Virus record (IMG/VR): IMGVR_UViG_3300005471_000012 | Location: 1 to 64,000 of that record | DNA: 64,000 nucleotides | Direction: 5' to 3' (one strand) | From: a virus | Shown here: positions 5,397 through 47,317 of the stretch, piece after piece | Numbering within the stretch: the first letter of the stretch is position 1 | Layout of the letters: the number at the start of each line of letters is the position of its first letter | Program-made: the position numbers and the translations under genes | The notes under the pieces: generated by a model | What the model was told of the DNA's origin: nothing | The model's database searches: none | What the model saw: the letters and a program-made list of their open reading frames with translations, nothing else

Positions 5397-5702
5397 ATGA
5401 CAGTCAATGGCTACACCCACGGTGACTGGAAGATGGAGATGGCCGCGGTCCTGGGCCTTGACGGCGCGATCTACAAGGCGCTGGACGAAATGCTGGCCGT
5501 GCTGCGCGGCCCCGCGGTACGCGCAGGCCGCACGCACCTGAAGCTCGTCGCCAGCCTGCAGAAGGAATTCGCTGACGGGATCGCCGAAGGGGCGGCGGCG
5601 GTCGGCGTCGAAGACGCGCACGCGATCCCCGTCCACGAGGCGATCCAGCGCGTCGGCGGCCTCGCCGAAGTCGCCCGGGAAAAGCGTTACCACGAGAGGT
5701 AG
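5397..5702 (+). CDS. ~100-aa helical protein, paralog 2
   Basis: RBS AAAGGGA; THGDW...EDAHAIPVHEAIQRVGGLAEVAR. Confidence 0.75.
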   Translation: MTVNGYTHGDWKMEMAAVLGLDGAIYKALDEMLAVLRGPAVRAGRTHLKLVASLQKEFADGIAEGAAAVGVEDAHAIPVHEAIQRVGGLAEVAREKRYHER

Positions 5703-6264
5703 CAGCCCGGCTCCGCTTGGGAGCCGAACGGAAAGGATGCCATGCCTGCGGACCTGCTAGGCGCATACGACGTGATGCTGCGAGGCCTGACGGCGGCGGA
5801 CGCGAGCCGCCGCCAGCTCAACGGCGTTATCGGCTGGGCCTGGCATGTGGCAGCCGCCTGCCGGGCCGGCGAGGGCTGCGGCAGCACGGCAGGCATGACA
5901 GTGAACCTGGCCGGCGGCGAATACGACCACGGCTCATGGAAATCGGACTGCCGGCAGATCCTGAGCGCATTGCTGCGGCAGCAGGCGGCAGCGGAACGGA
6001 TCCGGCTAGCCGAGCTTGCCGCGGCAGCCCGCGAGGAAGCAGCCGCTGCCGCGGCCCGCAGAAGAGGCGAGCCGGGGATGGCGGCGCGCCACGACCGTGA
6101 GGCGGCCCGGCACCGGGATCGCGCCGCCCGTGCCCTGAAATGGCAGCTGGCGGCATCTGATGCCCGCGGACAGGGGTGGCTGCTGATCCGGGCCGAAGAC
6201 GCGCACGCGATCCCCGTCCACGAGGCGATCCAGCGCGTCGGCGGCCTCGCCGAAGTCGCCCGGG
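5609..6264 (+). repeat. 71-bp identical direct repeat (5609-5679 and 6194-6264)
   Basis: cgaagacgcgcacgcgatcccc...gaagtcgcccggg is identical in two adjacent genes. Confidence 0.95.
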
Positions 6265-17629: not shown

Positions 17630-17743
17630 GCCTATTCCCGGCGCATTACCGGACGTCCCGTTAAACGGGCGCGCCGCCTGCGGTTCCCCGGTGCTATTCT
17701 TCCCGCTGCACCATTCACGGGGAAACTTAGCGGGGGACTAGGA

Positions 17744-18478
17744 ATGCCACGGCTCAGCCAGGTTGTCGCCGCCGAAGCGGGCACGAAAACCCGCACATAC
17801 GCGGAACTGACCGAATATTACAAGAAGCTCCAGAAGCCGGCGCTCGTGTCCGGTATCAGCCGCACCTACCAGCCTATCGCCGAAGGCGGCGAGCCGCTGC
17901 CCGCCGAATCGACCCGCGTCCAGATCATCGCCGAGGATGTCATCCGCGCGATGGTCACGTCGATGACGAAACTGTTCGACGTGACCGCAACCAAGGACTG
18001 GGCGAACTGCCGTGCCAGGGCACCCGTCCTGGTTGACGGCGAAGTGCTGCTGGAAGGCGTGCCGGTCACCTACCTGCTGTTCCTCGCCAAGCAGCTCAGG
18101 GACCTGCGCGCCGTCATCGTCAAGCTGCCGGTGCACGACCCGGCCGACCGCTGGGAATACGACCCGTCGCAGCGGTGCTACCGCACCGAGCCCCCGGTGG
18201 TCACCTACCGGTCGAAGAAAGTGCCCCGCAACCACGTCAAAGCCGAGGCCACGGACAAGCATCCCGCGCAGGTCGACGTGTACTTCGAAGACGTCAACGT
18301 CGGCGCGTGGACTGCCGTCAAATTCACGGGCGGCATCCCGGCGCAGCGGCAGGCCGAACTGCTCGGCCGGGTGGACACGCTGATCGAGGCGGTCGGCGCG
18401 GCCCGCGAGGAAGCCAACGCGATGCAGGCCGAAGACGTGCACATCGGAACCGACATCCTCGGCTGGCTGTTCCGCTGA
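17744..18478 (+). CDS. conserved hypothetical protein (actinobacterial/phage family), candidate partner of the downstream structured RNA
   Basis: Motifs GISRTYQP, LFDVTATKDWANC.A.A, VPV.YLLFL.KQL, KKVPRNHVKAEATDKHPAQV, AREEAN; recognised as a widespread family of unknown function. Confidence 0.85.
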   Translation: MPRLSQVVAAEAGTKTRTYAELTEYYKKLQKPALVSGISRTYQPIAEGGEPLPAESTRVQIIAEDVIRAMVTSMTKLFDVTATKDWANCRARAPVLVDGEVLLEGVPVTYLLFLAKQLRDLRAVIVKLPVHDPADRWEYDPSQRCYRTEPPVVTYRSKKVPRNHVKAEATDKHPAQVDVYFEDVNVGAWTAVKFTGGIPAQRQAELLGRVDTLIEAVGAAREEANAMQAEDVHIGTDILGWLFR

Positions 18479-18504
18479 CCATCACCGCGGGTAAGGACAC
18501 GGGC

Positions 18505-18720
18505 ATGAACTTCGGTCACGCGCTGGTCGCGCTGCGAACTGGCAAACGGGTCAGCCGCGCCAACTGGAACGGCCCCGGCCAGTGGATCGCATTGCAAGTA
18601 CCCGACGCGGAATCGAAGATGACACTGCCCTACATCTACATCAAAACAGTGCAAGGTGACCTTGTGCCCTGGCTGGGCAGCCAGACGGACCTGCTGGCAG
18701 ACGACTGGGAAGTCCGCTAG
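18505..18720 (+). CDS. DUF2829 / Tad2-like immune-signal sponge protein
   Basis: MNFGHAL..L..GKRV.R..WNG...LPYIYIKT.QGDLVPW..SQTDLLADDW signature; RBS TAAGGA. Confidence 0.85.
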   Translation: MNFGHALVALRTGKRVSRANWNGPGQWIALQVPDAESKMTLPYIYIKTVQGDLVPWLGSQTDLLADDWEVR

Positions 18721-18724
18721 GATC

Positions 18725-19171
18725 ACCGGCGAGCGTAAACTGAATCTGAACCTGAGACTCGGTCAATCCGGTATAGGAACATGGTGGAGGTTCGACCCCT
18801 CCCCGGGGCACGACGGCGGGAACGCCGCAAACCACCGGCCCCGGTAGCCCAATTGGAAGAGGCATCCCATTCCGGGCGAAACTTAGGCTCTCGCTCCAGA
18901 CTCGGTCCTGAAGCTCACCGCCAGATCCACTGGCCGCAGGCAAGTCCATGGAGAGGTTGCCGGTTCGAGTCCGGCCCGGGGAGCGCAGCACCAGCATCAC
19001 CCACAGTCCCCGGTAGCTCAACAGGCAGAGCAATCCGGCTAAGAAATGACTTGCGGTCTTAAACGCCGCTGGCAGCACGTTTCGTGTCTTTGAACAACAC
19101 GACACGGGCCCCTTGCACGGGGTTCATATCCCTTTACCGAGGGCCCGCGACTGGCTACGTCGCGGGCCCTC
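18725..19171 (+). ncRNA. structured RNA with two circularly permuted tRNA-like domains
   Basis: T-arms GGAGG-TTCGACC-CCTCC (18786-18802) and GCCGG-TTCGAGT-CCGGC (18959-18975). Each is followed by a 7-bp acceptor-like hairpin (CCGGGGC/GCCCCGG; CCGGGGA/TCCCCGG), then TA and a D-arm. Boundaries approximate. Confidence 0.85.
19139..19171 (+). terminator. 13-bp perfect hairpin, probable 3' end of the ncRNA
   Basis: GAGGGCCCGCGAC-tggctac-GTCGCGGGCCCTC. Confidence 0.65.
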
Positions 19172-19522
19172 CTGGGGTTTAACGGGGGTACGGCGTGAAC
19201 ATGGGCCTCAAGCCGGCGCCGATCGAGGCGGCCGGCGTCCCGGGCCGGGGCATCCGGCCGGGCACGGTGCACGAGATGATGCTCGACGTTCAGCGCGAAC
19301 GCGGCGACCCGGACGCGCCTGCCGCGGCCGACCCTGAGCACGACAGTAAGAACGCGCGGCCCGGAGAGGTTCCCCCCTCTTGACCGGGGCCGCGCCGGCT
19401 CCCCGTACCCCCGGCGTGGCATCCCCGGGCGCGCGTGCGGAGAGCCAGCAGCGGTCCTCGCCGCGCGGCAACGCGCGCAGCTCCCGCCGCGCGGCGGGGA
19501 CCGCCATCTGCCGTCCGGGCTG

Positions 19523-46632: not shown

Positions 46633-47317
46633 TTCGTGATCCTTTCCCGTGCCTGTCTGGGCTGGCTGCCGCTAGCTGTTACCCGGCGCTCTCGGTGATG
46701 CCGTATTCGCCGATCGTGTTCCCGTTGCCGTCAAGGATCTTGCCTGAGCCGTGGCCGGCCCGGATGCGCCGCGAGACGTTAGCGACGTAATCCGCCACGG
46801 CATCGGGCCCCGATTCGGCCGCCTCGGCATTGTCCAGGTTCATCGTCAGAGTGAAGATCATTTTCGTCCGGCCTCCGGTCGTTTGCCCTGCCTTCGTCAG
46901 TGCCAGGCGGGCAGTCCTGGCAGACACCCGCGCGGCGGGTGTTTCGGCTCAGCCCTCGGCCGGGAAGCAGTCCGCATAGGTGAATTCGGAAGCCTCGGAC
47001 TTCCACGGAATGTCTATCGTGTCGTCGCCGGACTCGATTGAGGCTTCGAAGTCGGTCACGTTTGAGAAGTCGCCGGCGTGCGTGTCAAGCCACGCCTGCA
47101 CCGATTCGCGCGTGATCTTGCCATCGCCGTGCTGGCGCACGTTGTCAACGTCATGCCCGCTTAGCTCGTACGTCTGGGCAGCGGTAACGCTCGCCATCCA
47201 TATGGTCCCGATCACCCGGATAACCGACTTGCGGACCGTGTAGCGCATCGTCTTGCCTTCCGTTCGGTTGCCGCTAGAAACTCCGCACCGCGCGCCGTGG
47301 CGCGCGATACGCAACCG

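What the first reader, a model, noticed from the sequence alone, without database searches (positions are those of the whole stretch)
17744..19171. Candidate new ribonucleoprotein system: conserved 244-aa protein plus an RNA with two circularly permuted tRNA-like domains
Seen: the non-coding ~450 nt after the Tad2-like gene holds two tRNA-like units in permuted order (T-arm, acceptor 3' strand, loop, acceptor 5' strand, TA, D-arm). Unit 1: T-arm 18786-18802, CCGGGGC 18803-09 pairing with GCCCCGG 18838-44, D-arm 18847-63. It is closed where the anticodon stem would be by CCGGTATAGGA 18768-78 / TCCCATTCCGG 18865-75, and further by CCTGAG/CTTAGG and GAGCG/CGCTC. Unit 2: T-arm 18959-75, CCGGGGA 18976-82 pairing with TCCCCGG 19007-13, D-arm GCTC-AACAGGCA-GAGC, closed by GCAAGTC 18940-46 / GACTTGC 19048-54. 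The terminal pair covaries between units (G-C vs U-A), which supports the permuted pairing. There is no anticodon. Established: this topology resembles bacterial YrlA Y RNAs, which have one such domain and sit by Ro60/Rsr genes, and two-piece tmRNA. Here there are two domains, no Ro60/TROVE gene in the window and no G3:U70 Ala determinant. Inference: the upstream protein of unknown function is the RNA's partner. From memory, unverified, its homologs in actinomycete chromosomes are followed by similar sequence. The pair may act as a tRNA decoy, scaffold or anti-defence RNP.
Basis: partly seen in the sequence, partly recalled or inferred. Interest (0 to 1): 0.92.

Follow-up and report, generated by a model that had tools for sequence, protein, structure and literature searches.

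The report
Twin tRNA-mimic RNA with DUF7873 gene
This phage carries a gene of unknown function (DUF7873) followed by a folded RNA of about 430 bases with two back-to-front tRNA look-alikes, and the same gene-plus-RNA pair recurs in many phages and in about half of Streptomyces species, without the Ro60 protein that such RNAs normally serve, so it is probably an undescribed RNA-protein unit.

Summary
Window 18740-19171 (+) encodes a structured RNA with two circularly permuted tRNA-like domains (T arm, 7-bp acceptor stem closed by a loop, UA, D arm). Both match Rfam YrlA over the full model but below threshold (40.6 and 22.6 bits; cut-off 69). The gene at 17744-18478 is Pfam DUF7873.

The same gene-then-RNA arrangement is present in all 17 viral loci and 79 of 80 bacterial loci examined. 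In the exception, the RNA lies 110 kb from the gene. Covariation is strong: 67 of 87 pairs carry compensatory changes, with 92% of cells paired against 37-44% in slid controls. In 121 Streptomyces species, the gene and the RNA occur in exactly the same 64 genomes.

No Ro60 (TROVE) gene was found in any of 16 phage genomes, and the Ro60-binding motif is absent here. RNA-seq contigs from one Streptomyces study cover the RNA at 7-16 times the depth of the gene's contig.

DUF7873 gives a confident model with no clear known fold. Binding between protein and RNA is inferred, not shown. The Tad2-like gene between them is unique to this phage.

I found no paper or Rfam family that describes the pair. 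This scan has already noted the same module in at least 13 other genomes.

The parts
17744..18478 (+). DUF7873 protein gene (244 aa)
   Evidence: Pfam PF25283, 323.7 bits against a cut-off of 27. 4600 clusters of relatives. AF2 model with pLDDT 96.
18505..18720 (+). Tad2-like gene (71 aa) inserted between the DUF7873 gene and the RNA. Specific to this phage and not part of the conserved module.
   Evidence: Pfam PF11195, 89.3 bits. tblastn finds it in none of the other loci.
18740..18766 (+). 5' tract of CUGAAN hexamers that includes the 5' strand of the outer closing stem of unit 1 (H1, 18754-18766)
   Evidence: Alignment A3. H1 pairs with 18878-18890. This is the weakest helix, with 78.5% of cells paired.
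18768..18875 (+). tRNA-like domain 1: inner closing stem 18768-78/18865-75, T arm 18786-18802, acceptor stem 18803-09/18838-44 with a 28-nt loop, UA, D arm 18847-18863
   Evidence: Rfam YrlA 22.6 bits. Own model R1 65.4 bits. The acceptor stem is 99.5% paired with 7 of 7 pairs compensatory, and the D stem is invariant.
18878..18931 (+). H1 3' strand, near-invariant linker CUCUCGCUCCAG (18888-18899), and the 5' strands of the outer helices around unit 2 (GCCAG 18920-24)
   Evidence: Invariant columns in A3 and A4. Sequence-only model R2 scores 67.9 bits on 18838-18944. GCCAG pairs with CUGGC 19069-73 (helix 7, 99.4% paired).
18932..19058 (+). tRNA-like domain 2 with its closing stem: GGCCGC 18932-37/GCGGUC 19053-58, T arm 18959-75, acceptor stem 18976-82/19007-13 with a 24-nt loop, UA, D arm 19016-31, conserved GACU bulge from 19048
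   Evidence: Rfam YrlA 40.6 bits, E 1.5e-7. R1 93.8 bits. Helices 9-13 have compensatory changes in 30 of 33 pairs.
19059..19138 (+). Conserved UUAAACG (19059-65), CUGGC (19069-73), then window-specific hairpins that replace helix 6 of the relatives
   Evidence: Alignment A3. Mapping of the consensus onto the window. Read directly.
19139..19171 (+). Terminal GC-rich hairpin with the conserved 7-nt loop UGGCUAC. Likely the terminator and 3' end of the RNA.
   Evidence: Helix 14 has 11 of 12 pairs compensatory in relatives. The loop consensus UGGAYAY is kept across phyla. The window's copy is mis-aligned in A3 and was placed by eye.

Best explanation
The locus is one copy of a widespread, self-contained two-part module. 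It consists of the DUF7873 gene and, on the same strand just downstream, a structured non-coding RNA of about 430 nt.

The RNA carries two YrlA-like tRNA mimics. Each has a T arm, a 7-bp acceptor stem closed by a loop, and a D arm with the GG needed for the tRNA elbow. There is no anticodon arm. The mimics are joined by near-invariant linkers, a long composite stem and a terminal hairpin.

Shown:
- The RNA structure is under selection.
- Gene and RNA are gained and lost together.
- Ro60 is not part of the module.
- In one Streptomyces study the RNA region is covered at much higher depth than the gene.

Inferred:
- Gene and RNA are transcribed from one promoter in front of the gene.
- The RNA accumulates as a stable species.
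- DUF7873 binds its conserved non-tRNA parts (CUCGCUCC linker, GAUC/UUAAACG and GACUGA internal loops, UGGAYAY loop).
- The resulting particle presents tRNA elbows to host enzymes or machines that recognise tRNA shape (RNase P, CCA-adding enzyme, TruB, exonucleases or the ribosome). This would parallel the way Y RNA tethers Ro60 to PNPase.

In phages the module often sits in tRNA arrays, so it would serve tRNA or RNA handling during infection. In this phage a Tad2-like gene has been inserted between the two parts without disturbing them.
For: Identity of the parts: DUF7873 at 323.7 bits; both RNA units match YrlA over the full model.

Conserved linkage:
- Two tandem units lie right after the gene in 12 viral loci (L001-L004, L007, L010-L014, L016, and L015 behind an insertion). 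At least one unit follows in the other 5.
- Units follow the gene in 79 of 80 bacterial loci from five phyla; for about a dozen only one unit reached the threshold.

Structure: 14 helices and 87 pairs, 92.2% paired against 37-44% for slid partners. 67 pairs have compensatory changes, and 0 of 500 shuffles reach the observed values.

Co-occurrence: DUF7873 is in 64 of 121 Streptomyces genomes. The RNA linker model R2 hits exactly the same 64, always adjacent, and none of the other 57.

Trans-acting RNA: in genome G010 the single DUF7873 gene and a full RNA copy are 110 kb apart. The RNA lies between a globin gene and a luciferase-like gene.

Independence from Ro60:
- TROVE is in 0 of 16 phage genomes.
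- It is never adjacent in bacteria.
- Partial TROVE hits occur in 39 of 64 DUF7873-positive and 25 of 57 DUF7873-negative Streptomyces.
- The Ro60 motif GNCGAAN0-1G is absent from the window and present in 13 of 62 relatives.

Self-contained module: no other conserved neighbour. RtcB is in 1 of 15 and the CCA enzyme in 3 of 15 phage genomes.

Expression: in two RNA-seq runs of one study, contigs over the RNA have depth 74-229 against 11-14 over the gene, and the flanking intergenic DNA is uncovered. One contig bridges the gene and unit 1.

Precedent: M. smegmatis YrlA, which also has a 7-bp acceptor stem, is cut by RNase P and receives CCA (PMC4201824). Here, acceptor loops begin with N-CCA in 18 of 62 unit 1 copies and 8 of 62 unit 2 copies.
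Against: - No direct evidence that protein and RNA bind.
- DUF7873 has a near-neutral pI (6.5 here; median 6.25 over 69 relatives) and no recognisable RNA-binding fold.
- Adjacent loci are inherited together, so the perfect co-occurrence is partly trivial.
- The expression evidence comes from assembled contigs of one study, which cannot give true levels, ends or strand.
- tRNA-like domain 1 is dispensable in about a third of Streptomyces copies. The 'twin' display is therefore not essential.
- No host partner has been identified.
Confidence: 0.6

Rival explanations
1. The RNAs are ordinary YrlA-type Y RNAs that work with the host's Ro60 (Rsr). DUF7873 is either an accessory factor of that system or merely a neighbour.
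For: Both units align to the full YrlA model. About half of Streptomyces encode a divergent TROVE+vWA protein. A minority of relatives carry GNCGAAN0-1G before unit 2 (13 of 62).
Against: - No TROVE gene in 16 phage genomes.
- 11 of 20 and 25 of 64 DUF7873-positive bacterial genomes have no TROVE hit.
- TROVE is never adjacent, lying 70-130 kb away where it is on the same contig.
- The Ro60 motif is absent in the window.
- No tRNA-like RNA lies beside the Streptomyces TROVE-like gene.
- YrlA scores are below the gathering threshold.
Confidence: 0.08
2. A toxin-antitoxin or abortive-infection pair in the style of type III systems. DUF7873 would be harmful when free, and the abundant structured RNA would neutralise it.
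For: - Strict pairing of one protein gene with one RNA, patchy presence (64 of 121 species), and presence in phages.
- The RNA contigs appear deeper than the mRNA contigs.
- One genome has a frameshifted gene with an intact RNA (G137).
Against: - No PADLOC match.
- The gene order is the reverse of type III systems, and the two RNA units are not recent repeats.
- The protein is unusually conserved in sequence and length across phyla (40-60% identity, 243-250 aa), unlike fast-evolving defence genes.
- Neighbours are housekeeping genes, not defence islands.
- In one genome the gene sits 110 kb from the RNA.
Confidence: 0.1
3. A protein-independent tRNA decoy. The RNA alone soaks up or misdirects tRNA-targeting nucleases or tRNA-modifying enzymes (anti-defence in phages), and DUF7873 has a separate function.
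For: In phages the module sits in tRNA arrays. The tRNA elbow features are fully conserved. A Tad2-like anti-Thoeris gene is inserted here.
Against: - There is no anticodon loop, which is the usual target of defence nucleases.
- The chromosomal copies are single-copy in free-living bacteria.
- The coupling to DUF7873 would be unexplained.
- Tad2 is unique to this phage.
- The near-invariant non-tRNA linkers point to a dedicated partner.
Confidence: 0.12
4. A cis-acting 3' UTR element that only stabilises or regulates the DUF7873 mRNA.
For: It lies on the same strand within about 30-150 nt of the preceding stop codon. One RNA-seq contig bridges the gene and unit 1.
Against: - The RNA is 110 kb from the gene in G010.
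- It is separated from the gene by inserted genes here (Tad2) and in a Microcoleus phage (HEARO RNA plus an ORF).
- RNA contigs are far deeper than gene contigs.
- About 400 nt with 14 covarying helices is excessive for a stabiliser.
Confidence: 0.05

Closest known systems
YrlA-class bacterial and phage Y RNAs with Ro60/Rsr (Rfam RF02553; Chen et al. 2014, PMC4201824), especially M. smegmatis YrlA
   Same: - The same permuted tRNA mimic: T arm, acceptor-like stem closed by a loop, U8-A9-like spacer, and D arm.
- It is closed by a long stem where the anticodon arm would be.
- The acceptor stem is 7 bp, as in the M. smegmatis RNA that RNase P cuts and that receives CCA.
- Several Y RNAs can lie side by side.
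   Different: - No Ro60 gene in the phages, and none nearby in bacteria.
- No conserved GNCGAAN0-1G Ro60 site.
- Scores are below the Rfam cut-off.
- The two mimics are built into one roughly 400-nt architecture with extra covarying helices, near-invariant linkers and a conserved terminal loop.
- The obligate neighbour is DUF7873, which is unrelated to TROVE.
Two-piece (circularly permuted) tmRNA
   Same: Permuted order of the tRNA-like parts. Weak partial Rfam hits to tmRNA families occur in some relatives.
   Different: ARAGORN finds no tmRNA. There is no tag reading frame, no alanine identity pair, the acceptor stems are closed by loops, and there is no SmpB link.
GOLLD and ROOL large ornate RNAs of phages
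   Same: Large structured non-coding RNAs that sit in or beside phage tRNA arrays (my own knowledge, plus the mention in PMC9569102).
   Different: No Rfam match to them. This RNA is smaller, has an obligate protein-coding neighbour, and is common in bacterial chromosomes.
Type III toxin-antitoxin systems (ToxIN type)
   Same: One protein gene strictly paired with one structured RNA, found in phages and patchily in bacteria.
   Different: The gene order is reversed. The RNA is not an array of near-identical repeats. There is no match to known defence families, and the protein is highly conserved.

Membership tests
YrlA (Rfam RF02553) | Score at or above the curated gathering threshold (69 bits) | tested here: not met
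   40.6 and 22.6 bits, both full-length alignments. Relatives score 29-50 bits.
YrlA (Rfam RF02553) | Permuted tRNA-like domain: T arm, acceptor-like stem-loop, D arm | tested here: met
   Sequence. 14 of 16 pairs compensatory in A1. Helices 2-4 and 11-13 are 98-100% paired.
YrlA (Rfam RF02553) | Ro60-binding motif GNCGAAN0-1G on the 5' strand of the closing stem (PMC4201824) | tested here: not met
   Absent before either unit in the window. Present in 13 of 62 relatives before unit 2.
YrlA (Rfam RF02553) | Encoded within about 4 kb of a Ro60/TROVE gene | tested here: not met
   No TROVE in the 91-kb record (81% complete by CheckV) or in 15 other phage genomes. Not adjacent in bacteria.
YrlA (Rfam RF02553) | Bound by Ro60 in vivo | not testable with these tools
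   Needs immunoprecipitation.
tRNA | Cloverleaf with anticodon arm, open acceptor end | tested here: not met
   ARAGORN finds none in the window. 95 nt lie between D arm 1 and T arm 2. Cross-unit acceptor pairing is not conserved, whereas within-unit pairing is 99.5-100%.
tmRNA (including two-piece forms) | tRNA-Ala-like end plus tag reading frame | tested here: not met
   No ARAGORN tmRNA. No Rfam tmRNA hit in the window region at E up to 10. No G3:U70 pair.
DUF7873 (Pfam PF25283) | Full-length match above the cut-off | tested here: met
   323.7 bits against 27, residues 1-243 on profile positions 1-242 of 244.
Ro60/TROVE (as the protein partner) | TROVE ring plus vWA domain | tested here: not met
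   DUF7873 has no TROVE match. Fold searches list no Ro60 among the top rows, which by itself is inconclusive.
Known anti-phage defence or type III TA proteins | Match to a PADLOC family | tested here: inconclusive
   No hit at E up to 1. The library dates from 2023.

The most novel reading that the evidence does not exclude
DUF7873 and its RNA form a Ro60-independent ribonucleoprotein of a new class, shared by phages and bacteria. In this particle, the acceptor loops are opened by RNase P and given CCA ends. The RNA would then become a base-paired multi-piece molecule with one or two genuine tRNA-like acceptor ends. These ends would engage the translation or tRNA-maturation machinery.
Probability: 0.3. 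Interest if true: 0.92.

Novelty: new variant of a known kind. Interest (0 to 1): 0.8.

Why it matters
Bacterial tRNA-mimic Y RNAs are known only as partners of Ro60. Here the same mimic is built into a larger, strongly covarying RNA. That RNA is tied to a different, highly conserved protein with no clear match to a known fold.

The protein family is large (about 4600 clusters at 90% identity). It is carried by cultured Gordonia, Arthrobacter, Rhodococcus, Klebsiella, Vibrio, Rhizobium and cyanobacterial phages. In the eight GenBank records I inspected, the RNA region is unannotated.

If the pair is a particle, it opens a second tRNA-mimic RNP system in bacteria. It would also give a testable function to a large DUF family and to the unexplained gaps in phage tRNA arrays.

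Tried and rejected
RNA searches and folds:
- Single-sequence folding of 18740-19178 gives z = -0.98, which is uninformative in 63-69% GC sequence.
- blastn of the RNA against 50,697 phage records found no match; only structure-aware models find relatives.
- Extra R1 hits elsewhere in Streptomyces genomes are tandem tRNA-Asn genes, the known dimeric-tRNA artefact.
- An alternative cross-unit acceptor pairing is possible in the window but is not conserved in relatives (checked by eye on A3).
- The consensus promoter and terminator scan found nothing useful on the + strand near the locus.

Protein searches:
- Foldseek against PDB and BFVD gave nothing at E <= 1e-3.
- VIA-align's best match is 3kdq, an uncharacterised protein: Z 8.6, rmsd 7.5 over 147 residues, within the tool's stated background.
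- The PDB profile search gave only E 0.1 hits to designed proteins.
- PHROGs, NCBIfam and PADLOC gave nothing for DUF7873.
- The ESM Atlas gave only unnamed viral clusters.

Context checks:
- RtcB and CCA-adding enzyme genes are not co-carried by the phages.

Sequencing runs:
- Run X3 laid a single 156-nt contig on the RNA region at depth 2.7. X5 is of unknown library type. None of these four was used.
- Parts of the locus without contig cover are not interpreted.

- The look-up of encoding contigs.
- Complex prediction, so homo-oligomerisation of DUF7873 was not tested.

One review (PMC10870794) is not held.
Full report
**What is in the window.** The 64-kb window is the first part of a 91-kb IMG/VR virus record with 69% GC and an estimated completeness of 81%.
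- The ORF at 17744-18478 (+) is a full-length member of Pfam DUF7873, at 323.7 bits against a cut-off of 27.
- The small ORF at 18505-18720 is a Tad2-like domain protein.
- ARAGORN finds no tRNA or tmRNA in the window. The whole record has a single tRNA-Asn far away, at 70576-70648 on the minus strand.
- At curated thresholds, Rfam reports only a type II hammerhead elsewhere in the window.
- A permissive scan of 18650-19250 gives two full-length alignments to YrlA (RF02553). They are at 18931-19062 (40.6 bits, E 1.5e-7) and 18754-18895 (22.6 bits, E 0.025). Both are below the 69-bit cut-off.

**The pairing with DUF7873 is general.**
- Nine IMG/VR loci encoding DUF7873 relatives were collected (44-60% identity). 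Eight loci from cultured phages were added: Gordonia Phendrix and Fryberger, Arthrobacter Racecar, Rhodococcus NiceHouse, Pseudanabaena Pam2, a Microcoleus phage, Klebsiella KpLz-2_45 and Vibrio K479.
- In the cultured phages the gene is followed by an unannotated gap of 340-1160 nt, often inside a tRNA array.
- Rfam YrlA hits fall in that gap in 11 of the 17 loci.
- A covariance model built from 12 of these hits (R1) finds two tandem units after the gene in 12 of the 17 loci. It finds at least one unit in the other 5.
- In the Microcoleus phage the two units lie behind an inserted HEARO RNA and ORF.
- In 80 bacterial loci from Actinomycetota, Chloroflexota, Armatimonadota, Acidobacteriota and Myxococcota, R1 finds units after the gene in 79. 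They begin about 50-130 nt past the stop codon, except in L021, where they lie about 900 nt downstream. For about a dozen loci only one unit reached the threshold.

**The exception is informative.** In the remaining genome, the single DUF7873 gene and a complete RNA copy lie 110 kb apart. The RNA sits between a globin gene and a luciferase-like gene. The RNA can therefore be a gene in its own right.

**Structure.** A 28-sequence alignment of the whole region (A3) gives an RNAalifold consensus of 14 helices and 87 pairs.
- On that alignment, 92.2% of cells are paired, against 37-44% when the partners are slid by 1-3 columns.
- 67 pairs have changes on both sides, and no shuffle of 500 reaches the observed values.

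The architecture runs as follows:
- a 5' tract of CUGAAN hexamers feeding an outer stem;
- tRNA-like domain 1, whose D arm is invariant;
- a near-invariant CUCGCUCCAG linker;
- a long composite stem with conserved internal loops (GAUC, UUAAACG, GACUGA) that encloses tRNA-like domain 2;
- a GC-rich terminal hairpin whose 7-nt loop (UGGAYAY) is conserved across phyla.

In the window these map to 18740-19171. Its acceptor loops are unusually long (28 and 24 nt, against 6-8 in most relatives). One outer helix is replaced by window-specific hairpins at 19076-19122.

The Streptomyces locus L049 has no tRNA-like domain 1, only a plain hairpin in its place. In 22 of the 65 Streptomyces RNA matches, the linker model aligns only from about position 19-38 onward, which points to the same variant.

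**Co-occurrence.**
- In 121 sampled Streptomyces species, DUF7873 is present in 64, almost always as a single copy.
- A sequence-only model of the D arm 1 and linker region (R2) does not cross-react with tRNAs. It hits exactly the same 64 genomes, always next to the gene, and none of the other 57.
- Because the two loci are adjacent, this partly reflects joint inheritance. Still, there is no case of one without the other.
- One genome has a frameshifted gene with an intact RNA.

**No other conserved partner.**
- Clustering the flanking ORFs of the 80 bacterial loci shows no other conserved neighbour. The commonest neighbours are ordinary transport, regulatory and metabolic genes.
- Upstream of many actinobacterial genes, a -10-like TAnnnT box lies a few bases before the GTG start. 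This suggests a leaderless transcript and an own promoter (by eye).

**Ro60 is not part of it.**
- TROVE is absent from this record and from 15 other DUF7873 phage genomes, 6 of them at least 90% complete.
- In 20 bacterial genomes with DUF7873, 9 have a TROVE hit and none is adjacent.
- In Streptomyces the TROVE hits are partial. The one gene I checked encodes a protein with a partial TROVE match followed by a weak vWA match.
- These hits occur in 39 of 64 DUF7873-positive and 25 of 57 DUF7873-negative genomes.
- The one checked has no tRNA-like RNA within about 2 kb on either side.
- The Ro60-binding motif defined by Chen et al. (GNCGAAN0-1G; PMC4201824) is absent from the window. It is found before unit 2 in only 13 of 62 relatives.

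**Expression.** Two RNA-seq runs from one study hold the locus of a cultured Streptomyces (L083).
- Their contigs cover the gene at depth 11-14 and the RNA region (5875-6086) at depth 74-229.
- The intergenic DNA on both sides is uncovered.
- One contig bridges the gene and unit 1.
- Contig depth is a coarse measure and only one study is involved. I take this as support that the RNA is transcribed and accumulates, not as a measurement.
- Two contigs carry back-junctions at short microhomologies near the D arm of unit 1. I read them as reverse-transcriptase template switching at an RNA 5' end or an RT stop. They remain unexplained.

**The protein.**
- AlphaFold2 with a 69-sequence alignment gives a confident model (pLDDT 96, pTM 0.75). 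It has four long helices and a sheet with a long beta-hairpin at residues 152-191.
- Foldseek finds nothing at E <= 1e-3 in PDB or BFVD.
- The best VIA-align row is an uncharacterised Corynebacterium protein at Z 8.6 with rmsd 7.5, within the tool's stated background.
- The pI is near neutral.
- The family is large and tightly conserved in length, at 243-250 aa.
- So the protein's activity is unknown, and RNA binding is an inference.

**Interpretation.**
- I rate at about 0.9 that this is a real, functionally coupled gene-plus-RNA module related in style to Ro60/YrlA but independent of it.
- I rate at about 0.55-0.6 that the two form a particle that presents tRNA elbows to tRNA-recognising host factors.
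- Both acceptor stems are 7 bp. Many relatives' loops begin with a discriminator base followed by CCA: 18 of 62 for unit 1 and 8 of 62 for unit 2. Cleavage by RNase P and CCA addition, as shown for M. smegmatis YrlA, is therefore a concrete and testable possibility.
- The anti-defence reading is weak. There is no PADLOC hit and the neighbours are housekeeping genes. The Tad2-like gene is present in none of the other loci held at the time, about 105. It looks like an incidental insertion that happens to be co-transcribed.

**Novelty.**
- I found no paper containing 'DUF7873'. No paper links YrlA-like RNAs to another protein.
- There is no Rfam 15 family for the RNA.
- Earlier notes of this scan describe the same module in at least 13 other genomes, with the same conclusion.
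  - the exact phyletic match in Streptomyces;
  - the unlinked copy;
  - the variant without domain 1;
  - the RNA-seq contigs;
  - the Ro60-motif test;
  - the finding that Tad2 is peculiar to this phage.

Noticed in passing
window 46882-46949 (-): Type II hammerhead ribozyme above the Rfam threshold (51 bits against 37). Other first-reader notes on this genome already cover it.
   Followed up: no
window 18505-18720: A Tad2-like (PF11195) gene is inserted between DUF7873 and its RNA. tblastn finds no such gene in any of the other loci held at the time (about 105), so it is an insertion specific to this phage.
   Followed up: yes
L015:3950-5922 (Microcoleus phage My-WqHQDG): A HEARO RNA (129 bits) and the following 425-aa ORF are inserted between the DUF7873 gene and the twin tRNA-like units, which follow at 5570-5922.
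   Followed up: partly
L010:1072-1600 (Gordonia phage Phendrix): Rfam finds a tmRNA (89 bits, E 2.8e-33) in a gap of the tRNA array that carries no annotation in the GenBank record.
   Followed up: no
L021:6215-7029 and 642-745: A Ktedonobacterales contig carries two consecutive twin-RNA copies about 900 nt downstream of DUF7873, plus a further single unit upstream.
   Followed up: partly
L083:5875-6025: RNA-seq contigs contain back-junctions (6018 joined to 5875, and 5987 joined to 5877) at 4-7 nt microhomologies, and depth jumps about 16-fold at 5875, inside the D arm of unit 1. Possible causes are an RNA 5' end, an RT-blocking modification, or circular forms. This is unresolved.
   Followed up: partly
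L049:5780-5870 and about 22 of the 65 Streptomyces RNA matches: A variant of the RNA in which tRNA-like domain 1 is replaced by a plain hairpin. The outer stem, linker and domain 2 are kept.
   Followed up: partly
window 17718-17743: The leader of the DUF7873 gene contains GAAACUUAG, identical to 18879-18887 in the RNA (the 3' strand of the outer stem of unit 1). The RNA's 5' hexamer tract could therefore pair near the ribosome-binding site. Similar motifs appear in a few phage loci but not in bacterial loci.
   Followed up: partly
G137:C1:6017128-6018140: One Streptomyces genome has DUF7873 split by a frameshift (two matches, profile positions 1-162 and 160-242) next to the best-scoring RNA copy.
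   Followed up: no
L106:1117-2874: A Streptomyces TROVE-like protein has only a partial TROVE match (profile positions 290-351) and a weak vWA match below the Pfam cut-off. No tRNA-like RNA lies within about 2 kb on either side.
   Followed up: partly
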